From: Candidatus Multivoradales bacterium | GTDB taxonomy: Bacteria > Acidobacteriota > Thermoanaerobaculia > Multivoradales > JAHEKO01 | Direction of reading: 5' to 3' | Assembly: GCA_965224065.1 (NCBI GenBank) | Contig: CBDCYF010000005.1 | Span: 2,751,616 to 2,815,615, forward strand | Length of the DNA: 64,000 nucleotides | Shown here: piece by piece, positions 31,594 through 45,830 of the stretch | How positions within the stretch are numbered: position 1 is the stretch's first letter | How the letters are laid out: every line of letters begins with the position of its first letter | Notes under the pieces: model-generated | What the model was told of the DNA's origin: nothing | The model's database searches: none | Seen by the model: only the letters and a program-made list of their open reading frames with translations | Program-made: the position numbers and the translations under genes

Positions 31594-31616
31594 TTCCTGG
31601 CCTAAGGTTCTCGTCG

Positions 31617-33492: not shown

Positions 33493-33557
33493 TGCAGGAT
33501 CATGCCGGGGGCTGATCGAACCCGATCAAAGGGAGTGGCCGGTTAGGAGGGGTGGAC

Positions 33558-35345
33558 GTGAGAGATCCAAAAAGGGTATTTCTCTTGGCTCTGGCACTCG
33601 TCGCGGTGGGTGCGGTCCCCGCGACGCCCCAGGATCCAACAGCCGAGCCGGAGACTCCGCTCAGCGCCGACGAAGAGCACGAGAAGCTCTTTCTCGAGAA
33701 CCGTTTTCCATCCGCGGCCACCTGCGCCACGTGCCATCCGAGCCACTATCGGGAGTGGTCGGTGTCGCCCCACGCCTACGCCCAGATGAGCCCGGTGTTC
33801 AACGCCATGCACGGCACCGTCCTGAAGGTCACCAACGGTACCAACGGGGACTTTTGCATCCGGTGCCACACGCCGGTGGGGATGAACCTGGAAGAGCCCG
33901 AGTTCATGAGCAACATGGACCGGCATCCGACATCCCGCGAAGGCGTCACTTGCATCGTCTGCCACCGGCTCAACAAGGCCTACGGCAAGCTGAGCGGTCG
34001 GCTGGCGATCGTCGAGGGGGATCTGTTCGAGCCAGTTTTTGGCCCCTCGGGAAACGACGAGGTCGAACGGGTGATCCAGTCAAGCGACTACCGGGTGAAC
34101 CCCGAGCGCGGCAAGGCGGGGCGTGCCATCCACGGCCGGGCGGAGAAGTTCTTCCAGCTCACCACCTCGGGCTTTTGTGCCACCTGCCACGACGTCAACC
34201 TGGTCAACGGATTCCGGCTCGAGGAAGCCTTTAGCGAGTTCAAGACCTCGCCGGCGGCGCGGAACGGGGTCTCCTGTCAGGACTGCCACATGAGCACCGA
34301 GCCGGGGGTGGACTCCGGGTATGCCGAGGGTCCGGCGGCGGTAGTCGGACGCAGGCAGACCCAGAGCCGCAAGCTCACCGACCACATGTTTGTCGGTCCC
34401 GACTACTCGATCGTCCATCCGGGAATCTTTCCGCACAACACAAAGGCCTCGGAGATGGCCACGATCCGGCAATGGCTGACCTTTGACTACAGAGCCGGAT
34501 GGGGGACCGACGAGTTCGAGATCGATGTCCCCGAGAGCTACTCCTTCCCCGAGCACTGGCGCTCGGCCGACGATCGCTACGACGCGCGCGACGTCCTGGA
34601 GGAGAATCTCGAGCTGTTGCGAGAAGCCGAAGCCGCGCGTCTTCAGATTCTGCGCGCCGGGTACAAGCTGGGTGAGATATTGGTCGACAGGGCGGACAAA
34701 AAAAAGGGTCTCGAGTTCCGGGTGGAGGTCAAGAACGGCACCGACGGCCACGGGGTACCGACCGGTTTCGACGCCGAGCGTCTGGTCTTTCTGCAGGTGA
34801 CCGTGGCCGATCGCTCCAGCGAGGTGATTTTCCGTTCCGGCGACCTCGATCCGAACGGCGACGTGCGCGACAACCATTCGCTCTATGTCCACAACGGCGA
34901 GCTGCCGCTGGACAAACAACTCTTCAGCTTGCAGTCGCGGTTTGTCACCCGGATGATCCGGGGCGGCGAGCGCGAACAGGTCCTGGCGGTCAACTACTCA
35001 CCCGACCCGCTGCCGTTTCTTCGGCCTTCGACATCGTCGACCATCTTGACCGGACGACCGCGGGGAGCGCGCAAACACAAACAGAACATCGAGCCGCTCG
35101 GCAGGCGCTGGGCGCGCTACCGGGTGAAGCCCGAGGCGCTGACCGGCAACGGGCCGTACGTCGCGCGGATCCAGCTGATCGCCGGGATGGTGCCGGTCAA
35201 CCTGATCCACGAGATCAAGGGCGTTGGTTTCGACTACGGCATGTCCGCCCGCGAGGTGGCGGAGAAGGTGGTGGAAGGCCACCAAGTCGTGTGGGATCGG
35301 AAGCTCGAGATCGCCACAGAACCGCCACAAGTCGCTGAGCGATGA
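33558..35345 (+). CDS. Pentaheme c-type cytochrome, secreted.
   Basis: Five CXXCH motifs: CATCH, CIRCH, CIVCH, CATCH, CQDCH. Signal peptide RVFLLALALVAVGAVPATPQD. About 595 aa. The GTG start was chosen by RBS spacing. Confidence 0.7.
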   Translation: MRDPKRVFLLALALVAVGAVPATPQDPTAEPETPLSADEEHEKLFLENRFPSAATCATCHPSHYREWSVSPHAYAQMSPVFNAMHGTVLKVTNGTNGDFCIRCHTPVGMNLEEPEFMSNMDRHPTSREGVTCIVCHRLNKAYGKLSGRLAIVEGDLFEPVFGPSGNDEVERVIQSSDYRVNPERGKAGRAIHGRAEKFFQLTTSGFCATCHDVNLVNGFRLEEAFSEFKTSPAARNGVSCQDCHMSTEPGVDSGYAEGPAAVVGRRQTQSRKLTDHMFVGPDYSIVHPGIFPHNTKASEMATIRQWLTFDYRAGWGTDEFEIDVPESYSFPEHWRSADDRYDARDVLEENLELLREAEAARLQILRAGYKLGEILVDRADKKKGLEFRVEVKNGTDGHGVPTGFDAERLVFLQVTVADRSSEVIFRSGDLDPNGDVRDNHSLYVHNGELPLDKQLFSLQSRFVTRMIRGGEREQVLAVNYSPDPLPFLRPSTSSTILTGRPRGARKHKQNIEPLGRRWARYRVKPEALTGNGPYVARIQLIAGMVPVNLIHEIKGVGFDYGMSAREVAEKVVEGHQVVWDRKLEIATEPPQVAER

Positions 35346-36802
35346 GACAAGCGCCGCGGATCTTGCTGGTGTCGTGCCTGCTGGCGGCTGGGGTTGCCGG
35401 ACGGGCCACGGCCTGGCCGTGCCCCGCGGCCGCGGGGGACGAGAAGCCGGCCAAAGCGGACGACCCCGAATCCCGCCATCCGTCGGCCCATCATTCGAGC
35501 CGGTTGAGTGACGAGTACATCCCGCTCCAGCTCGAAGGCTTCCCCAAGCGGCCCAAGCTGCTCCTCGAGCTGGGCAACCCCTATCTCGGCACCGGCAACA
35601 TCAAACCCGGCTTCGAGCTGCCGACCGGCGCGGTCTGGCAGCCGACTCTCATTCTTTTTGGCACGCTCCGGACCGCGGTTCAGAGCTTCGAGGCCGGCGG
35701 TGCCCGGTTCAGCGAAGTCGCCGCGCGCCTCGACCTTTTTGCCAACCTCCAACTTTCGGGCACCGAGCGTCTGGTGGTGGGGTTCCGCAACCTGGATCGG
35801 GAAGGCCGCTTTACGAGCTACGTCATCGAGCCCGAACCGGCGGACGGCGACCGGTTTCGCGAAGAGCTCAACGCCGATATCCAGAGCCTCTACTTCGAAG
35901 GCGATTTTGGCGAGATCTTCCCCAAGCTCGACAAGGAGGACTTTGGCCGTAAGGACTACGGCTTTGCGATCGGGCGCCAGCCGCTGCTCTTTCAAGAGGG
36001 GATGCTGATCGATGATTCGATCGACGGCATCGGCATCACCCGCAACACGCTGCTGCCCAGGAACACGTCGAATTTTCGCGCCACGCTCTATCTGGGCTTC
36101 GAAAATGTCCACCGATCGAATTTCGAGGATGACGAAGCGGATCTGTTCGCGTTGTTGACGTCGACCGATTTTCGCGCCTCGACAGTCGACGCGGACCTGG
36201 CCGTGGTGACCGGATCCGATCGCCACGGCGACCAGGCGAACCTGGGCGTGAGCGCCGTCCAGCGCCTGGGCAAATACAACACGTCGTTTCGAGTGCTCGC
36301 GTCGAGCGCTCTGGATGAAGAGACCTTCTTCAGCACCGACGGCGTGCTGCTCTTTAGCGAGGTGTCCTGGACGCCGCACTACACGCACGATCTGGTCTAT
36401 GTCACGACGTTTGCGGCCCTCGACCGGTATTCGTCCGCCGCCCGCGGCCCGGCCACCGGCGGTCCTCTGGGTCGAGCGGGAATCAACTTCGCCGCCGTCG
36501 GTTTGGGTCGCTTTGGGGCCCCGCTGTCGAGCGTTGCCTGGGATGTGGCCGGTGGCGCGGTCGGGTACCAGAAGTTTCTCGGGCCCGAGAACCGGCGCCA
36601 GGTGCTCGCCGAGCTGGGGGTGAGATTGGGTCTTGCCGACTCCGTTGCCGACTCGGCGGCGGTGAGTGTGCGTTATCAGACCGCGGTGGGGCGGCGGCTG
36701 GTTTTTGGGGTCAGTGGCTTTGGCGCCCGGATCGAGAGCACGTCCGGAGCCTCCACCGACGACCGCTACGGGGGACGTTTCGAGGTCACGCTCAAGTTCT
36801 AG
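35342..36802 (+). CDS. Outer-membrane beta-barrel protein (porin-like; possibly alginate-export/AlgE-like family).
   Basis: Signal peptide MRQAPRILLVSCLLAAGVAG. Alternating amphipathic beta-strand pattern throughout. C-terminal ...RFEVTLKF ending in Phe, which is the OMP beta-signal. The ATGA overlap with the upstream cytochrome stop suggests coupling. Confidence 0.55.
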   Translation: MRQAPRILLVSCLLAAGVAGRATAWPCPAAAGDEKPAKADDPESRHPSAHHSSRLSDEYIPLQLEGFPKRPKLLLELGNPYLGTGNIKPGFELPTGAVWQPTLILFGTLRTAVQSFEAGGARFSEVAARLDLFANLQLSGTERLVVGFRNLDREGRFTSYVIEPEPADGDRFREELNADIQSLYFEGDFGEIFPKLDKEDFGRKDYGFAIGRQPLLFQEGMLIDDSIDGIGITRNTLLPRNTSNFRATLYLGFENVHRSNFEDDEADLFALLTSTDFRASTVDADLAVVTGSDRHGDQANLGVSAVQRLGKYNTSFRVLASSALDEETFFSTDGVLLFSEVSWTPHYTHDLVYVTTFAALDRYSSAARGPATGGPLGRAGINFAAVGLGRFGAPLSSVAWDVAGGAVGYQKFLGPENRRQVLAELGVRLGLADSVADSAAVSVRYQTAVGRRLVFGVSGFGARIESTSGASTDDRYGGRFEVTLKF

Positions 36803-36839
36803 CTCGCCGAGCGTTCGACGGCGCTTCCGACAGCTCGTG

Positions 36840-38963
36840 ATGCTGGTCGCGCCGTTGACTCTTGCTCACAGCGCGTATGCCCAGGGTACGCGCGATCTGC
36901 CCTTTCTCGAGCATTCACGGGTCGATCCGACCAAGGTTCTTACCGCCGAGGCTTGCGGCGAGTGCCACATCGCCGAATTCGAGGTTTGGGAAAAAACGCC
37001 CCACGCGACCGGCTTCAAGACGCTGCATCGCAAGCAGCAGGCGGAGACGATTGCGCGCAAGATGGGGTTTCGGTTGATCAAGCGCGACAGCCTCTGCTTT
37101 AGCTGTCACTACACACCGGTGGTCGATGACGACCGGATCCGGGTGGTCTCGGGGGTCTCGTGCGAGTCGTGCCACGGAGCGAGCGCCGATTGGATCGACG
37201 TCCACAATGACTATGGGGCCGGCCGGGACTATCGCAGCGAGCCCGCCGAGGCGCGCCGCGAGCGCGAGGAAAAAAGCCGCAGCGCCGGAATGCGCCGCCC
37301 TTCGGACCTCTACCCGGTGGTCGCCAACTGCTTCTCCTGCCACACGGTGCCGAGCGAGGAGCTGGTCAACGTGGGTGGGCACACCACCGGCAGCGGCGGG
37401 TTCGAGTTTGTCGAATGGTCCCAGGGGAAAATCCGGCACAACTATCTCGACGTCGTGCGGACCGGCAACCCCGGCCCCAACGCCACCCGGCCGATGGAGC
37501 GCCGCCGGGCGATGTATGTGGTCGGTCGCGCTCTCGATTTGGAATTCGGCCTGCGTGGCCTGGCCGTGGCCAAGGAAGACGGGGTCTACGCCAAGGCGAT
37601 GAGCCGGCGGGTGCGGAGCGCGCTCGCCGAGGTCCGCGCGATCGCTTCTGAAGCCGCGTTGCCCGACGTCGAAGAGATGGTCCGAACGGTCCAGAGCGTG
37701 CGGGTGGTGCCGCGAAACGAGGCGGAGCTGCTCGCGGCAGCGGAGAAGATCGGCGCCGCGACGCGCCGCTTCCTCGATCGTCACTCGACCCTCGACATGG
37801 CGGCGCTCGATCCCCTGATGACCGGAGGGGGCGGCGGGGAAGCCGCCGAAGACACGCTGGCAGCTGCCGGCGAGCCAGAGGGCCTTGCCGATGTAGGAGA
37901 CGCCGAGCCCGGCGCAGCAGGTCTGTCCGCCGGCACGGTGCGGACCGTTTCGGTAGCGGGCGGTCCCGGGCGGGGCCCGGCGTCCGCCGCCTCACCGGCG
38001 GCAACGGCCGGCCAGGGTGTGGTCGGGGAGTTCAAGCGTTCGATCCGCCCAAAGTCCAAGCACCGAACGCTTGGCCCCGGCAGTTGCAGTGGCTGCCACG
38101 GTCCGCAAAACGAATGGTGGTTTGGCCACGCGCACTACCGGTCGGCCGACCCGTTCTTCGACGGCGCCGCGGCAAATCTCCAGATCGCGCGTCTCTACGG
38201 TGTCAAGACATCCGAGATCACGCGGGGCAAGAACATCTGTATGGACTGCCACGGCACGGTGATCTCAGGCAAGGAGTCGCGCGATGTGCTCGACGGCGTG
38301 AGCTGCGAGAGCTGCCATGGGGCCGCCGCCGACTGGCTCGAGCCGCACAAGGACGAGACCGACAAACAGCTCGGCCGCCGCCGGCCGGGGCATCTGGCCG
38401 CCCTGCGGCGCGGCAAGCTGGATCTGGCAGACGCCGGAGCTCGTGCCGAGCGCTGCGCCGGGTGTCATTATGTGACCGACCGGCGGCTGCTGTCGGCGGG
38501 GCATCCGTCGGGCGCCGACTTCGACTTCGCGCGCGCCATGGCCGAGGTCCGTCACTGGCAGCGGCCGCTCGAGCCGGCCGTGCAGTTGGCCTCCGCTTAC
38601 ACGCGGGTCAAGAGCGCGCGCGGGCCGGTGCCCGATGTGCCCAGGGCGGTACTCGCGGCGGCCGGCAGCCGCGTCGAAGGAGGCTCGAAACGCGGCGCCG
38701 TCGCCACTCGCCGGGCCGTTTTTGCAACCGGCACTGCGCCGGGATCGTCGGGCGCTCCGATTCCGATCGCCCTGCTCGATCCGCCGGCGCCGCGACCGGC
38801 CGCCGCCGGATCCCGTTCCTCGAGTCAGGGCCCGCCGGTCGATCTGCCGCCGTTTCCGGAAATCACGGAGTCGACTCCGATCGAGGACGTCTTGCTGATG
38901 CTTCGCGAGCGCCTGGCCCGGTTGTACCGGGCCGTGGCGCCGGGAGGGAGCGGCACCCCATGA
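36840..38963 (+). CDS. Octaheme c-type cytochrome built from two related tetraheme modules joined by an Ala/Gly/Pro-rich linker.
   Basis: Eight CXXCH motifs: CGECH, CFSCH, CESCH, CFSCH in the first module and CSGCH, CMDCH, CESCH, CAGCH in the second. Both modules contain VSCESCHGA(S/A)ADW. The start is ATG 36840 (or GTG 36837) and is uncertain. Confidence 0.7.
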   Translation: MLVAPLTLAHSAYAQGTRDLPFLEHSRVDPTKVLTAEACGECHIAEFEVWEKTPHATGFKTLHRKQQAETIARKMGFRLIKRDSLCFSCHYTPVVDDDRIRVVSGVSCESCHGASADWIDVHNDYGAGRDYRSEPAEARREREEKSRSAGMRRPSDLYPVVANCFSCHTVPSEELVNVGGHTTGSGGFEFVEWSQGKIRHNYLDVVRTGNPGPNATRPMERRRAMYVVGRALDLEFGLRGLAVAKEDGVYAKAMSRRVRSALAEVRAIASEAALPDVEEMVRTVQSVRVVPRNEAELLAAAEKIGAATRRFLDRHSTLDMAALDPLMTGGGGGEAAEDTLAAAGEPEGLADVGDAEPGAAGLSAGTVRTVSVAGGPGRGPASAASPAATAGQGVVGEFKRSIRPKSKHRTLGPGSCSGCHGPQNEWWFGHAHYRSADPFFDGAAANLQIARLYGVKTSEITRGKNICMDCHGTVISGKESRDVLDGVSCESCHGAAADWLEPHKDETDKQLGRRRPGHLAALRRGKLDLADAGARAERCAGCHYVTDRRLLSAGHPSGADFDFARAMAEVRHWQRPLEPAVQLASAYTRVKSARGPVPDVPRAVLAAAGSRVEGGSKRGAVATRRAVFATGTAPGSSGAPIPIALLDPPAPRPAAAGSRSSSQGPPVDLPPFPEITESTPIEDVLLMLRERLARLYRAVAPGGSGTP

Positions 38964-40606
38964 GTGAGACCGGCTCGGCGGCGCTCGACAAGACCACGCT
39001 CCGGCGGGTCGAGCAGTATCGGGACCGCTGGACTTCGGAAGAAACCGACTCCGGCCTGCTCGAGATCTCGGACCGTCTGAGCGCCGCGGCGTTGCGCGAG
39101 TTCGAGATCTTCTCTGACTACGACGACAAATTCCTCGAGAAGATCAGCCCCGACGTCTCGCTGGCGACCTGGCGCGAGGGCGCGGTTCTGTTCGAGGAGG
39201 GCGCCTACATCGACCTGGCGTTCTTCGTGGTCGGCGGAGAGGTCGAGGTCTACCTCCGAGGGGTCGAGGGTGCGAGCCAGGGTCCGCGACCGATCTTCGA
39301 TCTGTCGCGCACGATCGTCGGCGCCGCGGAAGGAACCGATTCCTCGCGCGTGACCGAGCCGGGCACGGTGTTGATGCGCCAAGCGACTCGAACCGCATCG
39401 ACACAGATCACCCTCCTGACCACTATGGATTTCGATCTGCCACGCGACGCCGTCACGCGGTTGGGAGAGGGCGAGCTCTTTGGCGAGATCGGCTCGATGA
39501 GCGGTTGGCCGCAGTCGGTGACGGCCCGCACCGCCACCGAGTGCCGTCTGCTGCAGATCCGGGTGCCGGCACTGCGGTTGATGAAGCGCAAATCCAAGGC
39601 GCTCAAGCAACGGCTCGACGCCCTGTACCGGGAGCGCTCGCTGTCCTCCCAGCTCAAGAGCACCCCGGTCTTTGCGGACTGCAACGACATCTTTATCGAG
39701 GCGCTCAAGGAGAAGGTCGAGTTGGTCTCCTGCGATCCGGGCGAAGTGGTGGCCCGCGAGGGAGAGGTGGCCGACGCGTTTTACGTGCTGCGTTCGGGGT
39801 TTCTCAAGCTCTCGCAACGATTCGAACAAGGCGAGATTGTGGTGTCCTATCTCTCCAAGGGGATGAGCCTTGGCGAGATCGAGTTGCTGATCGACGGGGT
39901 GGACGAGTGGCAGACCACGGTGACGTCGGTCGAGTACGCTGAGCTCATCAAGTTGCCCAAGGAGATCTTCGAGCAACTGATCGGCAGCTACCCGGAGATC
40001 AAGGAACGGCTGTGGCGCTCCGCCACCGACCGGGTGCGAGAGGCGGGCTTCAGCCGCCGCAACATCGGCCACGCCGAGTTCACCGACGTCGCTCTCGAGA
40101 CCGGACTGGTGCAGGGCAACAGCATCCTGGCGATCGACCTGGCGAGCTGCACACGATGCGATGACTGCGTGCGCGCCTGCTCGGCGACCCACGGCGGACG
40201 GTCGCGTTTTGTCCGCGAGGGCGACAAGGTCGAGAACCTGCTGATCGCCAAGTCCTGCTACCACTGCCGTGACCCGGTTTGTCTCGTCGGGTGTCCGACG
40301 GGCGCGATCCATCGGGCCGGCGTCGGCGACGTAGTGGCCGTGGATGAGGAGATTTGTATCGGCTGTTCGAGCTGTTCGCGCAACTGCCCCTACGACGCCA
40401 TCGTGATGCACGAGATGGGTGAGAAATGGCCCGACGACATGGTGCCCCAAGGTCTGCGGGGCAAGGACCGCAGCGTGGCGAGCAAGTGCGATCTTTGCTA
40501 CGACACCGGGCACGGCCCCGCGTGTGTGAGCAATTGCCCGCAAGGCTGTGCCTACCGGGTCGGCTCGCTCGAGGAGTTTCAAGAGCTGCTGGCGGGGTGG
40601 AGATAG
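38960..40606 (+). CDS. Cytoplasmic iron-sulfur protein with two cyclic-nucleotide-binding (CAP-effector) domains fused to a four-cluster [4Fe-4S] ferredoxin (NrfC/DmsB/PsrB-like).
   Basis: Two cNMP-binding beta-roll domains (GELFGEIG...SVTARTAT and ...GMSLGEIELL...). Four Cys clusters: CTRCDDCVRAC, CYHCRDPVCLVGCP, CIGCSSCSRNCP, CDLCYDTGHGPACVSNCP. No signal or Tat motif. The ATGA overlap with the octaheme stop suggests coupling. Confidence 0.7.
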   Translation: MSETGSAALDKTTLRRVEQYRDRWTSEETDSGLLEISDRLSAAALREFEIFSDYDDKFLEKISPDVSLATWREGAVLFEEGAYIDLAFFVVGGEVEVYLRGVEGASQGPRPIFDLSRTIVGAAEGTDSSRVTEPGTVLMRQATRTASTQITLLTTMDFDLPRDAVTRLGEGELFGEIGSMSGWPQSVTARTATECRLLQIRVPALRLMKRKSKALKQRLDALYRERSLSSQLKSTPVFADCNDIFIEALKEKVELVSCDPGEVVAREGEVADAFYVLRSGFLKLSQRFEQGEIVVSYLSKGMSLGEIELLIDGVDEWQTTVTSVEYAELIKLPKEIFEQLIGSYPEIKERLWRSATDRVREAGFSRRNIGHAEFTDVALETGLVQGNSILAIDLASCTRCDDCVRACSATHGGRSRFVREGDKVENLLIAKSCYHCRDPVCLVGCPTGAIHRAGVGDVVAVDEEICIGCSSCSRNCPYDAIVMHEMGEKWPDDMVPQGLRGKDRSVASKCDLCYDTGHGPACVSNCPQGCAYRVGSLEEFQELLAGWR

Positions 40607-40610
40607 GGCG

Positions 40611-41459
40611 ATGCCGGAAGCCGCGGGCAAGCTGCATCTTCGCGGGGGACGCCACCGATCGCGCGGGCTCTACGTCTTTGTGCTGGCCATTGCCGCCGCC
40701 CTGGTGGCGCTGACCGCAAACCTGGCTTTTTCCGAGCTCCGTCCGGGCAACGCCTGGGGGCTGACTTACGGCACTCTCGCAGCGTTGCTCCTGGTGGCGG
40801 CCGCGGCCCTAGGGGTCCGCCGGCGCGCTATGAAGACGTCTTCACGTCTGAACGCCGGCAGCGCTCGCCCGTGGCTCGCCTTCCATCTCTACGGCAGCTT
40901 GCTTTTTCTGTTGATCCTGCTGATGCACAGCGGGTTTCGTGTTCCGGAGGGCCGCATCACCTGGTGGCTCTGGGTCGCCAGCTTGTGGATGGTGGCGACC
41001 GGAGTCGTCGGCCGTTTGCTGCAAAAGTGGCTGCCACGCGTCCTGGCGTCGGGTCTTTCGACCGAGGTGCTCTACGAGCGGATTCCCGAGCTGGTCGAAG
41101 AGATCGCCGGCCGGGCCAAGGCCGTGGCCGAGACCTCCGGCGACGCGATCCGCGCACTCTACGATCGAGTGCTGGCGCCGGCACTGGGCAGTCCACGGCG
41201 ACGGTGGATCTACTTAGTCGACGTCACCGGCGGGATCCAGGCTCGGCTCAAAGAGTTTGAATACCTGCGCGCTCTACTCCCGGAAGGCGAGCAAAAAAAG
41301 CTGGACGAGCTCGAGCGGCTCTATCGAACCAAGCTCGAGATCGACGCGCACTACACGCTGCAACTGCCCCTTCGCTGGTGGCTCTACCTCCACCTGCCGG
41401 TCACCCCGGTGGTGCTGGCGCTGTTGCTGCTTCACCTCTACACGGTGCTTTTCTATTGA
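40611..41459 (+). CDS. Integral membrane protein, putative di-heme b-type transmembrane electron carrier (cytochrome b / ferric-reductase-domain-like His pattern).
   Basis: Five predicted TM helices. TM3 (WLAFHLYGSLLFLLILLMHSG) and TM5 (WWLYLHLPVTPVVLALLLLHLY) each carry two His 14 positions apart (His-x13-His), the spacing used for bis-His heme b ligation in cytochrome b and NOX/FRD proteins. The function is inferred. Confidence 0.45.
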   Translation: MPEAAGKLHLRGGRHRSRGLYVFVLAIAAALVALTANLAFSELRPGNAWGLTYGTLAALLLVAAAALGVRRRAMKTSSRLNAGSARPWLAFHLYGSLLFLLILLMHSGFRVPEGRITWWLWVASLWMVATGVVGRLLQKWLPRVLASGLSTEVLYERIPELVEEIAGRAKAVAETSGDAIRALYDRVLAPALGSPRRRWIYLVDVTGGIQARLKEFEYLRALLPEGEQKKLDELERLYRTKLEIDAHYTLQLPLRWWLYLHLPVTPVVLALLLLHLYTVLFY

Positions 41460-43045
41460 GCAAAAAGAAGAGCGGCAAGGGCGCTTTTGGCGATCTCGAC
41501 CTGCCGGTGGCGACGGCCTATCCGAGTCAGTTGTCACGCCGCCGGATGCTCCTGCTGGGAGTGGTCGCGGTGGCCGTGATCGCGGCGTTGATCGCCTATG
41601 TTCAGTTCACGGGCAGCAGCCGTTGGGCCTCGAAGGGTCCGCTGTCCTCGGCGCACGCGGCGTTCGAGTGCGGCAGTTGTCATGCGTCGGACGCTCGTAC
41701 GGTGACCGATGAGAAGTGCTCGTCTTGCCACGAGAAGTTCGGCGACGAGCTGGGTGTCTACACGTTTGCCTCGCACTACTTGTACAAGTCCGACGACTTC
41801 CGTCGCCTGGTCCCCTCGTCGGATGAGAAGCCTTGCTCGGCCTGCCATCTCGAACACGAGGGGCGTCACGCCGACATCACCCGAGTCGGAGACGCGCGTT
41901 GCGAGACCTGCCACTTTGCGTCTTTTGACAAAGACCATCCGGAGTTCGATTTTGCCGCCGAAGAGATCCCGGATCCCGCCGCGCTCGATTTCGCCCACGT
42001 CCACCACGTACGCGAGGTCATGAAGCGTCAGAAGCTCGACGACATCGAGGCCTCGTGTCTCTATTGCCACAACGCTCAGCCCGACGGGCGTGCGTTCCAG
42101 CCGACCTCCTTCGACCGGCATTGCGACGCCTGTCATCTCACCGCGGCGGTATCCACGCCCGGTCTGCCGATTGCGGGCGCTGCGGCGGGTGTCGAGACCC
42201 TGGAGCAGATCGCCGAGCGGGGCGGCCCGGGCACACGCTGGGTCTATTTCTCGAACCCCAACGAGTTCCGGGTTCGAGGCTCCGCGGTCGTCAAGACGCC
42301 GCTACACCACAAAGACCCCTGGGTACTGGACAACCTGCGGCGTTTGCGCGGGATGCTCTATCCTGACGCCGGCCTCGCCGACCTATTGCTCGCGTCGCCC
42401 GACGCCGAGCCGCATGAGATCCGCGCGCTCTATCAAGAGGCGATCGCCGCCCTCGAGGAGCAGGTCGTTGGGTTGCGCGGTCGCCCCGAGCCCGAGATCC
42501 AAGCGGAGCTCGGGCGGATCACCGATCTGCTCGAACGGCTGAAGCAGCAGGTGGCGGACCCGTTTGCGCCCCTCGACGAGACGCGCTTCGCCCTGGCGCT
42601 CGACAGAAAAGCCGATGAGCTCGGCTCGGAAACACAGGGCGAGATCGAGGGCTTGATCGAGGAGTTGACCCGGCCCTGTCTCCAGTGCCACGAGCTGCGC
42701 GCGGCGACGATCGCGCGAGTCCAAAAGGACCAGCGCGTGTTGAGACGCGCAAAGTTCGACCACCGAGCCCACATCATCCAGGCGCGTTGTCTGGATTGCC
42801 ACCGCGGAATCCCCATCGCGGAGGGGCTCGAGTCGGAAACGCCGACCACGCCGACAGACTCTGAGCTAGACCATTCGGCGATCCAGAATCTACCGGGGAT
42901 CGAGACTTGCCGCACCTGTCACCGGTCGCAGCAGGCCGCCGACCGCTGCGTGACCTGTCACGACTTCCACGCCGACAAGAGCCGGCGATCCGAGCTGTTG
43001 CTGTATTTGGGAGAGGACGTACCGGAAGAGGAGGCGAGGTCGTGA
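41456..43045 (+). CDS. Membrane-anchored decaheme c-type cytochrome.
   Basis: Ten CXXCH motifs: CGSCH, CSSCH, CSACH, CETCH, CLYCH, CDACH, CLQCH, CLDCH, CRTCH, CVTCH. The N-terminal TM anchor is MLLLGVVAVAVIAALIAYV. The proposed TTG start at 41456 overlaps the upstream stop. ATG 41546 is an alternative. Confidence 0.7.
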   Translation: MSKKKSGKGAFGDLDLPVATAYPSQLSRRRMLLLGVVAVAVIAALIAYVQFTGSSRWASKGPLSSAHAAFECGSCHASDARTVTDEKCSSCHEKFGDELGVYTFASHYLYKSDDFRRLVPSSDEKPCSACHLEHEGRHADITRVGDARCETCHFASFDKDHPEFDFAAEEIPDPAALDFAHVHHVREVMKRQKLDDIEASCLYCHNAQPDGRAFQPTSFDRHCDACHLTAAVSTPGLPIAGAAAGVETLEQIAERGGPGTRWVYFSNPNEFRVRGSAVVKTPLHHKDPWVLDNLRRLRGMLYPDAGLADLLLASPDAEPHEIRALYQEAIAALEEQVVGLRGRPEPEIQAELGRITDLLERLKQQVADPFAPLDETRFALALDRKADELGSETQGEIEGLIEELTRPCLQCHELRAATIARVQKDQRVLRRAKFDHRAHIIQARCLDCHRGIPIAEGLESETPTTPTDSELDHSAIQNLPGIETCRTCHRSQQAADRCVTCHDFHADKSRRSELLLYLGEDVPEEEARS

Positions 43046-43506
43046 AGGCCAAGCTGATCTCACAGTGGGGATCGACCCGCGGCACCGAGCACGGGATCGC
43101 CGGCGAAGCCACCATCGGGCGCGCCGAAGACAATTCGATTTGCGTCGGTGCGCGACCGGTGTCGTCGCACCATGCGCGGGTCTTTTTCAACGGCGACCGC
43201 GGGCTCTATTACGTCGAAGACCTGGGAAGCCTCAATGGCACCGAGCTCGACGGAATGCGGATCACCCGCGCCGAGCCCCTCGGGCGGCTCCATGTTCTCC
43301 GCTTTGGTGGGGTCGCCGAGTTCCTGTTTGTCGAGCTGGATCGCACCCCGGCCTTTGACGGCTCCGAGCCATCACCCACCAAGGTCCCGTCGGCGGCCGA
43401 CGCCACGGATCAAACTCATGTCGATGCCAAGCTCCCCGAGCTGCCCGAGGCCCTGCGCACTGACACGGCGCCACCGCAACCCCCAGAAGAAGACGGCGGC
43501 GAGTGA
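43042..43506 (+). CDS. FHA domain-containing protein (phospho-threonine binding).
   Basis: 154 aa. FHA signature TIGRAEDNSICVGARPVSSHHARVF...GLYYVEDLGSLNGTELDG. A GTGA overlap joins it to the decaheme stop. Confidence 0.65.
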   Translation: MKAKLISQWGSTRGTEHGIAGEATIGRAEDNSICVGARPVSSHHARVFFNGDRGLYYVEDLGSLNGTELDGMRITRAEPLGRLHVLRFGGVAEFLFVELDRTPAFDGSEPSPTKVPSAADATDQTHVDAKLPELPEALRTDTAPPQPPEEDGGE

Positions 43507-43518
43507 AAGAGGGCTGAC

Positions 43519-45759
43519 GTGGCGGCCCTGGACATCCTGATCGTCGGTGGCGGACCCGCCGGCACGGCGGTGGCCTTTCGCGCCCGCGAGCTGGGTCTCG
43601 ATGCCCTGGTCATCGACTACGACGATCTGATGAAACGCATCCGCGACTATTCCAAGGACAAGCTCATCCTGCCGGCCTTTGGTGGTGGCGACAAGGTGTG
43701 CTTTCCCAGGGGTGGCGATCTCGTCGAGTGTCTTCAGTTTCAACCGATCGACAAGGACGACATGTGCGCCGAGTGGAAGGCGCTTTACGAGAAGCACGAC
43801 ATCGCCAGGCGTGTTGGACTTGAATTGACCGGGCTCGAGCCCTTGGAGGATCGCTATCGCGCCGTGACGTGGGATCACAACCGGCGCACCGAGGAGTGCT
43901 TTGAGGCCCGCCACGTTGTGCTGGCGATCGGTCGCGGGGTGCCGCGGCGCTTCGACATCCCGGGAAATACCGATGGCATCGCCTATCGGCTGGCGGACCC
44001 CGAGGACTACGTCGGCAGCCCGGCGTGCGTGGTGGGTGGCGGCACCTCGGCCGCCGAAGCGGTCATCGCGATCTCCAACGCCAAGTCGCAGGCCGGCGAC
44101 GAGAGCTCGGTCTACTGGTCCTACCGCGGCGACAAGATGCCGCGTGTCTCAAAGTCGCTGGCCGGCGAGTTCTTTGCCGCCTATGTCGGCAACGGCAACA
44201 TTCGCTACTTCCGCAAGAGTGAGCCGGCTGCGATTTCCGTCGGCGACGACCGGCGCGAATACCTCGCCGTCCGGGTCGACCGCCACCAAATGGCCGGCCG
44301 GCCCAACGAGCTGACACTCCTCGAGTTCCCAAAGGAGATGTGCCTTGCCTGTATCGGGGAGGATATTCCCGAAGCCCTGCTCAACTCGTTTGGAATTCAT
44401 CTTGCGACCGGCGGTCCCAGGGGGCGCAAGCGGATGGTCGTCAATCGCTGCCTCGAGACCTGTCGCCCCAACGTCTATCTGATCGGCGACCTGCTGTCCC
44501 AGGCCTATTTCGAGACCGAGGACTTCGATGCCGACCCGGCCGGTTTTCGTGAGATCAAACATCGCGGCAACATCAAATCCGCCCTGCGCGACGGGGTGCG
44601 GGTGGCGCAGATCATCGAGCAGCGGCTGGCCGGCAAGGAGGATGTCGTAGTCGACATCGAAGACGCCGAGGATACGGGCTCCGGTGTCTCGATTGCCGCG
44701 GTCTCCGCGCCTCTGGGATCGAGCGGGCCGCCGCGGGAAAGTCTCGGTGAGGGTCGCTCCGAGACCGAGGCCGAGGCGTTCGTGATTCGGGTGCTGCCGA
44801 CCGGTGTCGAAGAAGACGAGTACCCGGTTCGCTCGCACGGGATCACCACGATCGGGAGCGGGGACTGCGACCTGTCGTTTCCGAGCGATTCGATGCTTGC
44901 GCCGTGCCACGGCTCGGTCTCCCATGGAGAAGAGGGCTACTTTCTGCGCGATGACGGCAGCTCGACCGGGGTGTTTCTCAAGATCGCGCCGGCGCGCAAG
45001 GTCGAGCTCTCGAGCGGCGACCTGCTCCGCGTGGGCCGGCAGTTTCTGGTGCTCCAGCGAGAGAACGGTGTGGCGTCGCTCGTCCACTACTCGGCCGATG
45101 GCGAGGAGCGGGGGCAGCTCGCGCTCGAGCCCGGGAGAACCTGGGTGCTCGGGCGCGGCAACCCCGACCGGGTGCTCGACGCCGGGGACAAGACCCTGTC
45201 GCGGCGGCACCTTGCGGTCTCGTTTGAAAAAGGGGTCGTTCGAGTCAAGGACCTCAAAAGCGTCAACGGGACGTTTCTTCGCGTCCGCCCGGCGCGCCGG
45301 CTCGAACACGGCGACCAGATCCGGCTCGGACAGCAACTCTTGACCTTCAGCCTACGGGGCGAGGCCGCGCTGGACCCGGGAATCGAATCGCGGTCGGCGT
45401 CGGTTGGCGGCGCTGTCGAAGGCGGTACCGAGGCGACACCGGCGCCCGGCCCCGGACAGGCGAGTGTGGTCTTTCGCGGCTCGGGATCTGATGCTCCCAT
45501 CCCGGTGGCGGCGGGTCAGAGCCTGTGCGAGGCGGCCGAGGCCGCCGGAGTCGAGATCACCGCCGAATGCCATTCCGGGATTTGCGGCAGCGATCCGATC
45601 CGGATCGTCTCGGGCGCCGAGTACCTCGCCGGGGACGCTGCCGACCAGGAGCGCGAGACCCTCGAGGAACTCTGCGAGGTCGAGCCGGGCTCGTGCCGGC
45701 TGGCCTGCATGACACGGATCAACGGCCCGGTCGTCGTCGAGCTCCTGAGTTCGGACTGA
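43519..45759 (+). CDS. Multidomain redox protein: FAD/NAD(P)-binding pyridine-nucleotide oxidoreductase domain, then two FHA domains, then a C-terminal Cys-rich ferredoxin-like ([2Fe-2S]?) domain.
   Basis: N-terminal ILIVGGGPAGTAVA (FAD) and VVGGGTSAAEAV (NAD(P)) Rossmann motifs. FHA-1 is ITTIGSGDCDLSF...GYFLRDDGSSTGVFL. FHA-2 is TWVLGRGNPDRVLD...SRRHLAVSF...DLKSVNGTFL. The C-terminus carries CHSGICGSD...CRLAC. 746 aa. Confidence 0.65.
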   Translation: MAALDILIVGGGPAGTAVAFRARELGLDALVIDYDDLMKRIRDYSKDKLILPAFGGGDKVCFPRGGDLVECLQFQPIDKDDMCAEWKALYEKHDIARRVGLELTGLEPLEDRYRAVTWDHNRRTEECFEARHVVLAIGRGVPRRFDIPGNTDGIAYRLADPEDYVGSPACVVGGGTSAAEAVIAISNAKSQAGDESSVYWSYRGDKMPRVSKSLAGEFFAAYVGNGNIRYFRKSEPAAISVGDDRREYLAVRVDRHQMAGRPNELTLLEFPKEMCLACIGEDIPEALLNSFGIHLATGGPRGRKRMVVNRCLETCRPNVYLIGDLLSQAYFETEDFDADPAGFREIKHRGNIKSALRDGVRVAQIIEQRLAGKEDVVVDIEDAEDTGSGVSIAAVSAPLGSSGPPRESLGEGRSETEAEAFVIRVLPTGVEEDEYPVRSHGITTIGSGDCDLSFPSDSMLAPCHGSVSHGEEGYFLRDDGSSTGVFLKIAPARKVELSSGDLLRVGRQFLVLQRENGVASLVHYSADGEERGQLALEPGRTWVLGRGNPDRVLDAGDKTLSRRHLAVSFEKGVVRVKDLKSVNGTFLRVRPARRLEHGDQIRLGQQLLTFSLRGEAALDPGIESRSASVGGAVEGGTEATPAPGPGQASVVFRGSGSDAPIPVAAGQSLCEAAEAAGVEITAECHSGICGSDPIRIVSGAEYLAGDAADQERETLEELCEVEPGSCRLACMTRINGPVVVELLSSD

Positions 45760-45760
45760 A

Positions 45761-45830
45761 GCGGCCGGCGCCCCTGCCGGTCGTTGGGGCCGGTGTCCCG
45801 CCGGCCGACCCTACCCGGCCGGAAAATCGA
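45761..45830. repeat. REP-like hairpin element (type B) between convergent genes. Probably a bidirectional terminator.
   Basis: tgaagcggccggcgcccctgccgg..., the same unit as at 31367 and inside aceF. Followed by further GC palindromes (ccggccgg). Confidence 0.6.

What the first reader, a model, noticed from the sequence alone, without database searches (positions are those of the whole stretch)
33558..36802. Pentaheme cytochrome translationally coupled to an outer-membrane beta-barrel: a candidate porin-cytochrome pair
The barrel gene start (ATG 35342) overlaps the pentaheme gene stop (TGA 35343-35345). Both proteins have Sec signal peptides. The barrel ends in ...TLKF, a C-terminal aromatic typical of the BAM-recognised beta-signal.

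At 486 aa the barrel is in the size range of Geobacter OmbB-type porins, which sheath a cytochrome. The only nearby family I can suggest for it is alginate-export-like. There are no polysaccharide biosynthesis genes nearby, so a role in redox-protein passage seems more likely.
Basis: inference. Interest (0 to 1): 0.6.

Follow-up and report, generated by a model that had tools for sequence, protein, structure and literature searches.

The report
Pentaheme cytochrome paired with outer-membrane barrel
The overlapping pentaheme-cytochrome and beta-barrel genes are a real, always-linked pair that forms the outer-membrane end of a widespread but never-tested electron-transfer gene cluster ("PCC4"), and the barrel looks like a narrow solute channel under which the cytochrome sits, not a sleeve around it.

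Summary
A five-CxxCH cytochrome gene (33558-35345) ends in TGA inside the ATG of a 486-aa beta-barrel gene (35342-36802).

The pairing is not chance. In every one of 83 related loci with upstream sequence, from about ten phyla, the same cytochrome lies directly upstream of the barrel. At least 36 protein clusters are natural cytochrome::barrel fusions with no internal signal peptide.

The pair heads a cluster of eight genes on the + strand that matches the bioinformatically proposed "PCC4" cluster of He et al. 2017. The other six genes encode an octaheme cytochrome, a cNMP-binding 4Fe-4S protein, a probable dihaem-b inner-membrane protein with two WX3HX13H motifs, a decaheme cytochrome, an FHA protein and an NAD(P)H-type flavoprotein with 2Fe-2S.

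The cytochrome belongs to the globular, periplasmic c552/ExtKL fold family. The barrel has no sequence family. Its model has about 18-20 strands and resembles AlgE, OprD and MOMP, not MtrB. SPOR fusions in homologues place its N-terminus in the periplasm.

Best reading (about 0.45): the pentaheme docks under the barrel, which admits a small redox solute, as proposed for Cyc2, and electrons flow outward from NAD(P)H. An Mtr/OmbB-type sheath is less likely.

It is a new member of a known but uncharacterised kind.

The parts
33545..33550 (+). Shine-Dalgarno-like AGGAGG ahead of the cytochrome start codon.
   Evidence: Read directly from the sequence. It lies 7 nt before GTG 33558.
33558..35345 (+). 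Pentaheme c-type cytochrome (595 aa). It has a Sec-type signal and an N-terminal five-haem domain followed by an Ig-like C-terminal domain. It belongs to the c552/ExtKL fold family.
   Evidence: It has five CxxCH motifs. It hits Pfam Cytochrome_C554 at E 2.8e-10. It matches PDB 5ZE8 (cytochrome c552) at E 1.5e-12, across both the haem domain and the Ig-like domain. Mean column identity is about 0.8 over 118 orthologues.
35342..35345 (+). ATGA start/stop overlap, indicating translational coupling between the cytochrome and barrel genes.
   Evidence: Seen. The same 4-nt overlap occurs in 27 of 76 related loci.
35342..36802 (+). Outer-membrane beta-barrel (486 aa). After the signal peptide come a His/Asp/Glu-rich tract, a conserved N-terminal segment (HSSRLSDEYIPLQ...RPK.LLELG), about 18-20 strands and a C-terminal ...KF.
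   Evidence: The AlphaFold2 model has pLDDT 76 and 19 DSSP strands. Foldseek matches MOMP, AlgE, OprD and chitoporin at E down to 1e-12. No Pfam, NCBIfam or PDB sequence hit was found. There are 784 clusters at 50% identity.
36837..38963 (+). Octaheme cytochrome made of two tetrahaem c554-like modules joined by a low-complexity linker. The start codon is uncertain: GTG 36837 and ATG 36840 are the first start codons after the barrel stop.
   Evidence: It has eight CxxCH motifs. It hits Cytochrome_C554 twice, at E 4.8e-25. It is syntenic in most loci. The sequence was read.
38960..40606 (+). Cytoplasmic protein with two cNMP-binding domains and a 4Fe-4S dicluster domain. Its ATG overlaps the octaheme gene's TGA (ATGA).
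   Evidence: It hits Pfam cNMP_binding at 1.1e-28 and Fer4_11 (PF13247) at 2.8e-9. The overlap was read.
40611..41459 (+). Inner-membrane protein, probably a dihaem cytochrome b. It has two WX3HX13H motifs and a TGVVG motif.
   Evidence: The motifs were found. Of 52 homologues, 47 have both motifs. This matches the inner-membrane protein signature described for PCC3/PCC4.
41456..43045 (+). Decaheme cytochrome with an N-terminal membrane anchor. The start is either TTG 41456, which overlaps the inner-membrane protein gene's TGA, or ATG 41546.
   Evidence: It has ten CxxCH motifs. It hits Pfam Cytochrom_c3_2. The sequence was read.
42907..43506 (+). Short FHA-domain protein. The true start probably lies after 43045.
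   Evidence: It hits Pfam FHA at 4.1e-13. FHA genes occupy the same place in L001, L002 and L086.
43519..45759 (+). Flavoprotein combining Pyr_redox_2 (FAD/NAD(P)H), FHA and 2Fe-2S ferredoxin domains.
   Evidence: Pfam hits are. It is syntenic in most acidobacterial loci. In Gammaproteobacteria, Phycisphaerae and Nitrospirales its place is taken by an FNR-like gene with FAD_binding_6, NAD_binding_1 and Fer2 domains.
45811..47814 (-). Ser/Thr protein kinase with a TonB_C domain. It is a probable regulator acting through the FHA domains.
   Evidence: It hits Pfam Pkinase at 3.9e-46. Kinase genes also flank the cluster in L002 and L086.

Best explanation
The two genes encode the outer-membrane module of a 'PCC4'-type electron-transfer system that spans the cell envelope.

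The pentaheme cytochrome is a globular protein of the c552/ExtKL fold family. It is exported to the periplasm and binds the periplasmic face of the barrel, probably through the barrel's conserved N-terminal segment. In some lineages it is covalently fused to that segment.

The barrel has about 18-20 strands and is AlgE/OprD-like. It does not enclose the cytochrome. Instead it gives a small diffusible redox substrate passage across the outer membrane to an exposed haem. The substrate is most plausibly a metal ion or chelate such as Fe or Mn. This is the logic proposed for the fused cytochrome-porin Cyc2.

Electrons most likely flow outward along this route:
1. cytoplasmic NAD(P)H
2. flavoprotein with 2Fe-2S
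3. cNMP-regulated 4Fe-4S protein
4. dihaem-b inner-membrane protein
5. decaheme cytochrome
6. octaheme cytochrome
7. pentaheme cytochrome

**Shown:** the gene pair, its coupling, its conservation, the fusions, the fold classes and the cluster composition.
**Inferred:** the docking geometry, the channel role, the direction of electron flow and the substrate.
For: **1. Obligate linkage.** The cytochrome is directly upstream of the barrel in 83 of 83 informative loci from Acidobacteriota, Planctomycetota, Gammaproteobacteria, Nitrospirota, Nitrospinota, Bacteroidota/Rhodothermota, Verrucomicrobiota, KSB1 and Omnitrophota. Overlapping or abutting start and stop codons are the rule.

**2. Natural fusions.** At least 45 clusters at 90% identity contain proteins of 1060-1155 aa with the cytochrome and barrel in one chain. 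In 36 of 37 examined, the two parts are joined by a hydrophilic His/Asp/Gly linker with no signal-peptide-like stretch. These fusion genes sit in the same gene cluster.

**3. Periplasmic N-terminus.** Homologues P0178 and P0160 carry a peptidoglycan-binding SPOR domain at the barrel's N-terminus, and P0178 is still preceded by a multihaem cytochrome gene (P0160's neighbourhood was not looked up).

**4. Cytochrome family.** The cytochrome matches T. tepidum c552 (5ZE8) at E 1.5e-12. The characterised relatives of this family are soluble periplasmic proteins. At about 114 aa per haem it is not wire-like.

**5. Barrel fold.** The model has 19 DSSP strands. Its best matches are 18-strand monomeric substrate channels (MOMP, AlgE, OprD/Occ, chitoporin). 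MtrB does not appear among the listed best matches.

**6. Outward electron flow.** The cluster encodes cytoplasmic NAD(P)H-type flavoproteins of two unrelated kinds, each ending in a 2Fe-2S domain. A minimal version (L089) has only the cytochrome, the barrel and a Ferric_reduct + FAD_binding_6 + NAD_binding_1 + Fer2 protein, which is a NOX/FRE-type architecture. The window's inner-membrane protein has two WX3HX13H motifs.

**7. Metal-binding hint.** A tract with 10% histidine, also rich in acidic residues, follows the barrel's signal peptide.
Against: - No model coordinates or PAE were available, so docking, pore width and plugging were not examined. The fusion model had pTM of only 0.50.
- Nineteen DSSP strands leave 18 or 20 open. 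Twenty-strand barrels have been proposed as cytochrome sheaths in Geobacter (own knowledge).
- He et al. 2017 proposed the opposite direction of electron flow, from extracellular Fe(II)/Mn(II) to the quinone pool. They found the cluster in obligate Fe(II) oxidisers.
- No substrate is identified, and there are no experimental data for any member.
- Many loci have the pair alone with no adjacent electron-input genes.
- A fused N-terminal passenger followed by a C-terminal barrel is also the topology of an autotransporter.
Confidence: 0.45

Rival explanations
1. Mtr/OmbB-type sheath, the first reader's view and in essence the PCC4 model of He et al. 2017. In this reading a multihaem cytochrome (the pentaheme or the adjacent octaheme) is inserted through the barrel. 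A continuous haem chain then crosses the outer membrane and touches insoluble minerals or electrodes directly.
For: - The gene order (cytochrome, barrel, octaheme cytochrome) is analogous to known porin-cytochrome clusters.
- The strand count could be 20.
- Highly conserved segments in the barrel's N-terminus and the cytochrome's C-terminal domain are poorly modelled in isolation. This is what one expects of parts that fold only in a complex.
Against: - The barrel is structurally closest to 18-strand narrow channels, not to MtrB.
- From standard barrel geometry, which is my own inference, an 18-20-strand barrel has a side-chain-lined lumen of roughly 21-25 A. The five-haem Y-shaped cap of a c552-type protein is much wider.
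- The aa-per-haem ratios (about 114, 89 and 55 for the three cytochromes) are far from the roughly 33 of MtrA.
- There is no lipoprotein or extracellular multihaem cytochrome.
- SPOR-fused homologues keep the N-terminus in the periplasm.
Confidence: 0.2
2. The architecture is the same (cytochrome docked under a channel), but electrons flow inward. Dissolved Fe(II) or Mn(II) enters the barrel and is oxidised by the pentaheme, and the electrons go to the inner membrane. This would be lithotrophic or detoxifying metal oxidation, as in Cyc2.
For: - PCC4 was discovered in Zetaproteobacteria, which oxidise Fe(II), and in Hyphomicrobium from Fe/Mn filters.
- The Cyc2 precedent applies.
- The barrel carries a His-rich tract.
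Against: - The cytoplasmic partners are NAD(P)H-type flavoproteins and Fe-S proteins. In L089 the partner is a complete ferric-reductase-like protein. From established knowledge, such proteins carry electrons outward.
- Moving electrons inward through a transmembrane dihaem b runs against the membrane potential, and from there to NAD(P)+ is uphill (inference).
- Fe(III) formed in the periplasm would precipitate.
- Most hosts are not known metal oxidisers.
Confidence: 0.15
3. Periplasmic small-molecule reductase plus its substrate porin for a non-metal substrate such as polysulfide, selenite or another oxyanion. The model is Geobacter ExtI (porin) with ExtKL/MccSep (pentaheme polysulfide reductase).
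For: - The cytochrome is of the same fold family as ExtKL/MccSep.
- MccSep is periplasmic and encoded next to the porin ExtI.
- The very high conservation of the pentaheme suggests an enzyme.
Against: - MccSep's defining haem-ligating Cys and its Sec/Cys are absent. All ten Cys in the window protein lie in CxxCH motifs, and His398 sits at the loop that carries Sec in MccSep.
- The barrel is not of ExtI's Porin_O_P family.
- The NCBIfam ExtKL score is 30.7 against a cut-off of 250.
Confidence: 0.1
4. Autotransporter-like display. The barrel exports the cytochrome and tethers it on the cell surface, with the conserved N-terminal segment lying in the pore.
For: - The fusions have an N-terminal passenger, a linker and a C-terminal barrel.
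- With 19 DSSP strands and a periplasmic C-terminus, the N-terminal segment would start on the outer side unless a further strand exists (inference).
Against: - A haem-loaded, folded 60-kDa cytochrome is an implausible passenger.
- A surface pentaheme would have no haem path back to the periplasm.
- SPOR-fused homologues keep the N-terminus periplasmic.
- Relatives of the cytochrome are periplasmic.
Confidence: 0.05

Closest known systems
PCC4 gene cluster (He et al. 2017, Front Microbiol, PMC5566968). It is a hypothetical porin-cytochrome system proposed from genome analysis only.
   Same: - A porin sits next to a pentaheme cytochrome, with further periplasmic multihaem cytochromes.
- An Fe-S (pfam13247) gene lies upstream of an inner-membrane protein with two WX3HX13H motifs and an SGXXG motif.
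- Extra redox genes are present, there is no extracellular cytochrome, and hosts are mostly marine.
- Relatives of the window barrel in Pseudomonadales, Phycisphaerae and Nitrospirales have exactly the 5-, 4- and 10-haem set.
   Different: - The window has an octaheme (a duplicated tetrahaem) instead of the tetrahaem.
- It has a Pyr_redox_2/FHA/Fer2 flavoprotein instead of the FNR-like one.
- Its motif reads TGVVG rather than SGXXG.
- Its host is in Acidobacteriota, a phylum not listed in 2017.
- Sequence identity of the porins could not be checked, because the paper gives only IMG identifiers and its tables are held as images.
Cyc2, the fused monohaem cytochrome-porin of Fe(II) oxidisers.
   Same: The cytochrome is attached N-terminally to a modest-sized barrel. 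The proposed logic is that a dissolved metal reaches the haem through the pore. Many homologues of the window pair are true fusions.
   Different: This system has five haems in a roughly 570-aa two-domain protein, not one haem in a small domain. The barrel has about 18-20 strands, not 16. The window's version is split into two genes. No sequence relationship was found.
Geobacter ExtI porin with ExtKL (MccSep) pentaheme.
   Same: A pentaheme of the c552 fold family is encoded beside an outer-membrane porin-like protein. MccSep is a periplasmic enzyme.
   Different: The Cys-ligated haem and the Sec are absent here. [quoted passage not shown] There is no rhodanese or ExtJ gene.
MtrCAB, MtoAB and OmbB-OmaB-OmcB porin-cytochrome complexes.
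   Same: An outer-membrane barrel gene is clustered with multihaem cytochrome genes. An octaheme gene is adjacent to the barrel gene, as with OmaB.
   Different: There is no MtrB_PioB Pfam hit and no MtrB among the listed best structural matches. There is no wire-like decaheme and no lipoprotein surface cytochrome.
AlgE, OprD/Occ and MOMP, which are 18-strand monomeric channels.
   Same: They are the best structural matches of the barrel model, with E 1e-12 to 1e-9 and target-normalised TM 0.55-0.68.
   Different: Sequence identity is about 10%. No sequence-profile similarity was found. There is no alginate or nutrient-uptake gene context.
Thermochromatium tepidum pentaheme cytochrome c552 (PDB 5ZE8).
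   Same: It is the only solved structure with significant sequence similarity to the window cytochrome (E 1.5e-12). The match covers the haem domain and the Ig-like domain, including the His-x-x-P-T-G loop.
   Different: The window protein is about 160 aa longer. The physiological role of c552 is itself unknown.
NOX/FRE ferric-reductase-domain oxidoreductases.
   Same: L089 encodes a Ferric_reduct + FAD + NAD + Fer2 protein next to the pair. The window's inner-membrane protein has the two HX13H pairs.
   Different: In the window these functions are split over four proteins. The inner-membrane protein does not hit Pfam Ferric_reduct.

Membership tests
PCC4 cluster (He et al. 2017) | A porin gene lies adjacent to a periplasmic pentaheme cytochrome gene. 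| tested here: met
   for the window. It holds in 83 of 83 informative loci.
PCC4 cluster (He et al. 2017) | Three periplasmic multihaem cytochromes with 4, 5 and 10 haems. | tested here: inconclusive
   The window has 8, 5 and 10. Relatives L052, L048, L056 and L074 have 5, 4 and 10. The octaheme consists of two c554-like tetrahaem modules.
PCC4 cluster (He et al. 2017) | An inner-membrane protein with two WX3HX13H motifs and an SGXXG motif. | tested here: met
   The window has WLAFH..H at residue 89, WLYLH..H at residue 258, and TGVVG. Of 52 homologues, 47 have both His motifs.
PCC4 cluster (He et al. 2017) | Subgroup II: an Fe-S (pfam13247) gene directly upstream of the inner-membrane protein gene. 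| tested here: met
   PF13247 Fer4_11 is hit at E 2.8e-9 by the gene at 38960-40606, which ends 4 nt before the inner-membrane protein's ATG.
PCC4 cluster (He et al. 2017) | Sequence homology of the barrel to the published PCC4 porins. | not testable with these tools
   The paper gives only IMG identifiers and its supplementary table is held as an image.
MtrB/PioB porins (Pfam PF11854) | A sequence match to the MtrB_PioB model and a barrel of about 26 strands. | tested here: not met
   None of 44 family members hits any Pfam model, even at E up to 10. The model has about 19 strands. MtrB is not among the best 50 structural matches listed.
Geobacter OmbB-OmaB-OmcB porin-cytochrome complex | An extracellular lipoprotein multihaem cytochrome in the cluster. 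| tested here: not met
   The signal peptides of the pentaheme and octaheme have no lipobox cysteine, and the decaheme has an N-terminal membrane anchor (by inspection).
Geobacter OmbB-OmaB-OmcB porin-cytochrome complex | Sequence homology of the barrel to OmbB. | not tested
   No OmbB sequence or model was available in the tools.
Alginate export family (Pfam PF13372, AlgE) | A sequence match to the family model. | tested here: not met
   Searches gave no Pfam hit. The profile search against PDB sequences found no AlgE match at E up to 10.
Alginate export family (Pfam PF13372, AlgE) | An AlgE-like 18-strand fold. | tested here: met
   Foldseek matches 3RBH and 4AZL at E about 1e-11 with target-normalised TM about 0.6. 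This shows fold similarity only.
Alginate export family (Pfam PF13372, AlgE) | A gene context of exopolysaccharide synthesis or export. | tested here: not met
   The window and the related loci carry cytochrome, Fe-S and flavoprotein genes instead.
c552/ExtKL pentaheme cytochrome fold family | Five CxxCH motifs in an N-terminal domain plus a C-terminal Ig-like domain alignable to 5ZE8. | tested here: met
   phmmer gives E 1.5e-12, with two aligned stretches covering residues 52-251 and 375-435.
MccSep (ExtKL) polysulfide reductase | A haem-2 distal Cys ligand and a catalytic Sec or Cys in the Ig-domain loop. | tested here: not met
   There is no Cys outside the CxxCH motifs, and His398 is invariant at the DG-x-P loop. 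The NCBIfam ExtKL score is 30.7 against a cut-off of 250.
Cyc2 fused cytochrome-porin | A single polypeptide with an N-terminal monohaem cytochrome and a barrel of about 16 strands. | tested here: not met
   The window has two genes, five haems and about 18-20 strands. Homologues are fused but still pentahaem.
ExtI-type porin (Porin_O_P) | A sequence match to the phosphate-selective porin O/P family. | tested here: not met
   No Pfam hit was found.

The most novel reading that the evidence does not exclude
The pentaheme-barrel pair, fused into one protein in many lineages, may be the outer-membrane terminus of a bacterial NOX/FRE-like reductase that spans the whole envelope. It would spend cytoplasmic NAD(P)H to reduce something at or beyond the outer membrane. 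That could be reductive mobilisation and uptake of Fe(III), or production of extracellular superoxide or a reduced shuttle, in largely aerobic or facultative marine and sediment bacteria. cNMP and Ser/Thr-kinase/FHA signalling would keep it under tight control. This would be a new class, a 'multihaem Cyc2', and not a respiratory mineral reducer.
Probability: 0.25. Interest if true: 0.8.

Novelty: new member of a known kind. Interest (0 to 1): 0.55.

Why it matters
The pair belongs to a very widespread family: 256 GTDB species representatives and 784 clusters at 50% identity. The family is strongly conserved and completely uncharacterised. It has been noted once, in 2017, as the hypothetical 'PCC4'.

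This analysis adds several points that turn a vague 'candidate porin-cytochrome' into testable hypotheses:
- The cytochrome-barrel pair is the invariant core, and the electron-input modules attached to it are interchangeable.
- The pair is repeatedly fused into one polypeptide.
- The cytochrome is of the periplasmic c552/ExtKL fold.
- The barrel is AlgE/OprD-like, not Mtr-like.
- The cytoplasmic partners point to NAD(P)H-driven outward electron flow.

A cultured host, Sulfidibacter corallicola M133, carries the complete cluster. If the channel model holds, it widens the Cyc2 principle to multihaem systems. It would also bear on how many non-'electroactive' bacteria exchange electrons with metals outside the cell.

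Tried and rejected
- **Co-folding.** A direct co-fold of the two window proteins is not possible with the tool. I instead modelled a natural fusion (P0191) using a naturally paired alignment. The result had pTM 0.50, and no coordinates or PAE were returned, so domain docking could not be read. The barrel's N-terminal segment rose from pLDDT 35-45 to 48-75. That difference is inconclusive, because both the protein modelled and the alignment differ between the two runs.
- **Foldseek with the fusion model** listed only barrel matches.
- **Exact-sequence look-up** of the window barrel (P0001) found no contig on record.
- **PDB profile search** with the barrel alignment gave no relevant hit.
- **Rfam** gave nothing in the window.
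- **Promoter and terminator scans** gave nothing above the shuffled expectation inside the cluster.
- **Upstream motif.** A conserved motif upstream of the cytochrome was sought. Only the closest relative, L006, shares the AT-rich palindrome.
- **Other published systems** are different from this one: the Verrucomicrobia PCC, the peat EET1-4 clusters, the Manganitrophus PCC_1 and the Tenderia Uet cluster.
- **Lipoprotein reading of the barrel.** The LVSC at residues 9-12 was rejected as a lipobox, because the signal would be too short and the Cys is not conserved.
- **L067 and P0319** were rejected as true fusions, because a signal-peptide-like stretch is retained.

Full report
**Observation**

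The cytochrome ORF runs from GTG 33552 or 33558 to TGA 35343-35345. An AGGAGG at 33545-33550 favours 33558 as the start. The barrel ORF starts at ATG 35342 and ends at TAG 36800-36802, so the two genes share the tetranucleotide ATGA. The cytochrome has five CxxCH motifs, and all ten of its cysteines lie in them. Both proteins begin with a basic stretch followed by a hydrophobic stretch, as Sec signal peptides do. I judged this by inspection, because no predictor was available. The barrel ends in ...TLKF, and K485/F486 are conserved in at least 90% of 44 homologues. There are no polysaccharide genes nearby. Pyruvate dehydrogenase E1, E2 and E3 lie upstream, and redox proteins lie downstream.

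**The two proteins**

The cytochrome hits only generic multihaem Pfam models. Its one significant match among solved structures is the pentaheme cytochrome c552 of Thermochromatium tepidum (5ZE8, E 1.5e-12). [quoted passage not shown]

The literature places c552 in one fold family with Geobacter ExtKL and the cable-bacteria pentaheme cytochromes (PMC11976967). ExtKL, renamed MccSep, was recently shown to be a periplasmic tetrameric polysulfide reductase. It has a Cys-ligated haem 2 and a catalytic selenocysteine (PMC13510729).

The window protein lacks both of those residues. Across 118 orthologues it has nine conserved histidines outside the haem motifs. One of them, the invariant His398, sits in the loop that carries Sec in MccSep. 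Mean column identity is about 0.8 across phyla, which is unusually high.

The barrel hits no Pfam or NCBIfam model. This remains true when all 44 aligned homologues are scanned at E up to 10. A profile of the family finds no solved barrel by sequence. An AlphaFold2 model built on 44 homologues has pLDDT 76 and pTM 0.71, with 19 DSSP strands. The segment at residues 19-86 is poorly modelled, although from about residue 53 onward it is highly conserved. Foldseek places the model with 18-strand monomeric channels: C. jejuni MOMP, AlgE, OprD/Occ and chitoporin. E-values run from 1e-12 to 1e-9, target-normalised TM is 0.55-0.68, and identity is about 10%. MtrB is not among the 50 best matches listed.

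**Is the pairing meaningful?**

The barrel family is large. It has more than 1000 hits, and 784 clusters at 50% identity. It occurs in 256 species-level genomes.

I fetched 85 loci from Acidobacteriota (Thermoanaerobaculia, and Holophagae including the cultured Sulfidibacter corallicola), Phycisphaerae and other Planctomycetota, Pseudomonadales, Nitrospirales, Nitrospinales, Rhodothermales and Salinibacter, Saprospiraceae, KSB1, Omnitrophota and Opitutales. In every locus with upstream sequence (83), the pentaheme gene lies directly upstream of the barrel on the same strand. The other two loci are cut at the contig end. The cytochrome is 53-87% identical to the window's, and the barrel 43-80%.

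Among 76 loci with a scorable barrel start, 27 have the same 4-nt overlap, 7 have a 1-nt overlap, and 57 have the two genes within 20 nt.

The strongest evidence is that the two proteins occur as one polypeptide. A search with the fusion protein P0191 returned at least 45 clusters at 90% identity, of 1060-1155 aa, each with five haem motifs. In 36 of 37 examined, the junction is a hydrophilic His/Asp/Gly-rich linker with no signal-peptide-like stretch. The exception, the P0319/L067 type, keeps one and may be a frameshift. Fusions are found in unrelated lineages, including Saprospiraceae, Planctomycetaceae and a large high-GC clade. [quoted passage not shown]

Other homologues carry a SPOR peptidoglycan-binding domain N-terminal to the barrel. 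One of them, P0178, still follows a multihaem cytochrome gene. This places the barrel's N-terminus in the periplasm. Between the signal peptide and the conserved HSSRL(S/T)DExIPLQ motif, the barrels have a tract with 10% histidine that is also rich in Asp, Glu and Gly.

**The wider cluster and the literature**

In the window the pair is followed by six more genes on the same strand:
- An octaheme cytochrome made of two c554-like tetrahaem modules.
- A protein with two cNMP-binding domains and 4Fe-4S clusters. Its ATG 38960 overlaps the octaheme gene's TGA.
- A membrane protein that starts 4 nt after the Fe-S gene's stop.
- A decaheme cytochrome with a membrane anchor. Its possible TTG start overlaps the preceding stop.
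- A short FHA-domain protein.
- A flavoprotein with Pyr_redox_2, FHA and 2Fe-2S domains.

A Ser/Thr kinase gene lies on the opposite strand. The same set recurs in most acidobacterial loci.

In Pseudomonadales, Phycisphaerae and Nitrospirales the order is pentaheme, barrel, an FNR-like gene (FAD_binding_6 + NAD_binding_1 + Fer2, with an N-terminal membrane helix), tetrahaem, cNMP/Fer4_11 protein, membrane protein, decaheme. That is, feature for feature, the 'PCC4' cluster (subgroup II) that He et al. 2017 proposed from genomes of Fe(II) oxidisers. They described a porin, three periplasmic cytochromes with 4, 5 and 10 haems, a pfam13247 Fe-S gene upstream of an inner-membrane protein with two WX3HX13H motifs and SGXXG, further redox genes, no extracellular cytochrome, and mostly marine hosts.

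The window's membrane protein has both WX3HX13H motifs and a TGVVG motif. Of 52 homologues, 47 have both His motifs. A full-text search for 'PCC4' found no later work on it.

I could not confirm sequence identity with the published porins. The paper gives IMG numbers, and its table is held as an image. The assignment therefore rests on matching features.

**How it most likely works**

A physical complex of the pentaheme and the barrel is strongly indicated. The question is its geometry. Several observations argue against an Mtr- or OmbB-like sheath:
- The barrel's structural neighbours are narrow 18-strand channels.
- Standard barrel geometry gives an 18-20-strand barrel a Calpha diameter of about 33-36 A, and so a side-chain-lined lumen of roughly 21-25 A. 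This is my own calculation from established formulae, not a tool result. A Y-shaped five-haem cap domain of the c552 type cannot fit in that space.
- The cluster's cytochromes have about 114, 89 and 55 residues per haem, against about 33 for the wire-like MtrA.
- None of them has a lipoprotein signal.
- The barrel's N-terminus, where the cytochrome is attached in the fusions, is periplasmic in the SPOR variants.
- Characterised relatives of the cytochrome are soluble periplasmic proteins.

The simplest model is therefore that the pentaheme sits beneath the barrel, and the barrel lets a small redox-active solute reach it. This is the reasoning applied to the fused cytochrome-porin Cyc2.

On the direction of electron flow, the cytoplasmic partners are NAD(P)H-type flavoproteins of two unrelated kinds, both ending in a 2Fe-2S domain. 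One minimal locus (L089) has only the pentaheme, the barrel and a Ferric_reduct + FAD_binding_6 + NAD_binding_1 + Fer2 protein, which is a NOX/FRE architecture. Such proteins carry electrons from cytoplasmic NAD(P)H outward. Inward transfer through a transmembrane dihaem b would run against the membrane potential and uphill to NAD(P)+ (inference). I therefore favour outward flow, which is the opposite of the Fe(II)-oxidation model of He et al.

The substrate is unknown. The His-rich tract and the ferric-reductase partner point to a metal, but this is weak evidence. Many loci carry the pair alone or with other input modules. The pair thus seems to be a portable outer-membrane module.

**Limits**

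No coordinates or PAE were returned for either model. I could not measure the pore, see whether the conserved 37-residue loop (363-399) or the N-terminal segment plugs it, or judge docking in the fusion model, which had pLDDT 73.7 and pTM 0.50. Nineteen DSSP strands means 18 or 20. The parity decides whether the N-terminal segment needs an extra strand or passes through the lumen, so an autotransporter-like display cannot be excluded. Nothing in this family has been tested experimentally.

**Comparison and novelty**

The pair works most like Cyc2 (cytochrome attached to a modest barrel) and like Geobacter ExtI/ExtKL (porin beside a c552-fold pentaheme). It is a member of neither. It has five haems rather than one, it lacks the Cys/Sec active site, and the barrel is not in the Porin_O_P family. 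It is not an MtrB/PioB porin, and at sequence level it is not an alginate exporter. By all testable features it belongs to the hypothetical PCC4 class. It is therefore a new member, with variant features, of a kind already noted but never characterised.

This analysis adds the invariant-core finding, the natural fusions, the fold assignments, the periplasmic topology, the NAD(P)H-linked input modules, and a cultured host (Sulfidibacter corallicola M133, L043) in which the model can be tested.

Noticed in passing
window 30283-30455: A 54-nt tandem repeat with 3.1 copies lies inside the PDH E2 gene (29966-31360). It encodes a repeated Pro/Ala-rich inter-domain linker. Similar P/A-rich coding-like text continues in the 31360-31617 spacer.
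   Followed up: partly
window 31617-33428: The dihydrolipoamide dehydrogenase (E3, 603 aa) appears to carry an extra N-terminal lipoyl-like domain followed by a P/A-rich linker. This was judged by eye from the translation.
   Followed up: no
window 33474-33491: An AT-rich palindrome, GTTAA-N8-TTAAC, lies in the 130-nt spacer upstream of the cytochrome gene, in a genome of 65% GC. Only the closest relative, L006, has a similar sequence (TGTTAAAGATTACGTT). It may be an operator or promoter element.
   Followed up: partly
window 42907-43506, 43519-45759 and 45811-47814(-): There are FHA domains in a short protein and in the flavoprotein, a divergent Ser/Thr kinase with a TonB_C domain, and two cNMP-binding domains on the Fe-S protein. 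This suggests the electron conduit is controlled by phospho-threonine and cyclic-nucleotide signalling.
   Followed up: partly
window 38960-38963 and 41456-41459: Two further 4-nt start/stop overlaps occur inside the cluster. ATGA joins the octaheme and Fe-S genes. A possible TTGA joins the membrane protein and decaheme genes. The whole set looks like one translationally coupled operon.
   Followed up: yes
L089:2791-8750 (GCA_031296915.1): A minimal version of the system has only the pentaheme, a barrel with an N-terminal coiled-coil-like extension, and one Ferric_reduct + FAD_binding_6 + NAD_binding_1 + Fer2 protein. It has no other cytochromes.
   Followed up: partly
L070:7114-10377, P0191 and about 45 other clusters: Natural single-chain fusions of the pentaheme and the barrel exist. 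P0270 and P0271 still show a degenerate remnant of the barrel's signal peptide in the linker, which suggests the fusions arose from the overlapping gene pair.
   Followed up: yes
P0178, P0160 and P0132: Some barrel homologues carry N-terminal SPOR or Calx-beta domains. Others carry long coiled-coil or low-complexity extensions (P0140, P0218, P0219, P0234).
   Followed up: partly
L080:4431-6929: A 17-haem cytochrome gene lies directly upstream of the pentaheme in a Planctomycetaceae MAG.
   Followed up: no
L052:15400-17472 and relatives: The decaheme of the gammaproteobacterial, Phycisphaerae, Nitrospirales and Opitutales clusters begins with a conserved Cys-rich, apparently cytoplasmic N-terminus (e.g. 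...YERPNQDWVCGWAKDGRPCPLGPNAKGQC...). The window's decaheme lacks it.
   Followed up: no
window cytochrome residues 438-450 and 470-500; barrel residues about 53-100 and 363-399: These segments are among the most conserved (the two cytochrome segments have column identity about 0.85), yet most are poorly modelled by AlphaFold2: the two cytochrome segments and barrel residues 63-86 have pLDDT below 50, and the barrel loop 363-399 about 50-75. They are candidate haem-contact or inter-subunit interface regions.
   Followed up: partly
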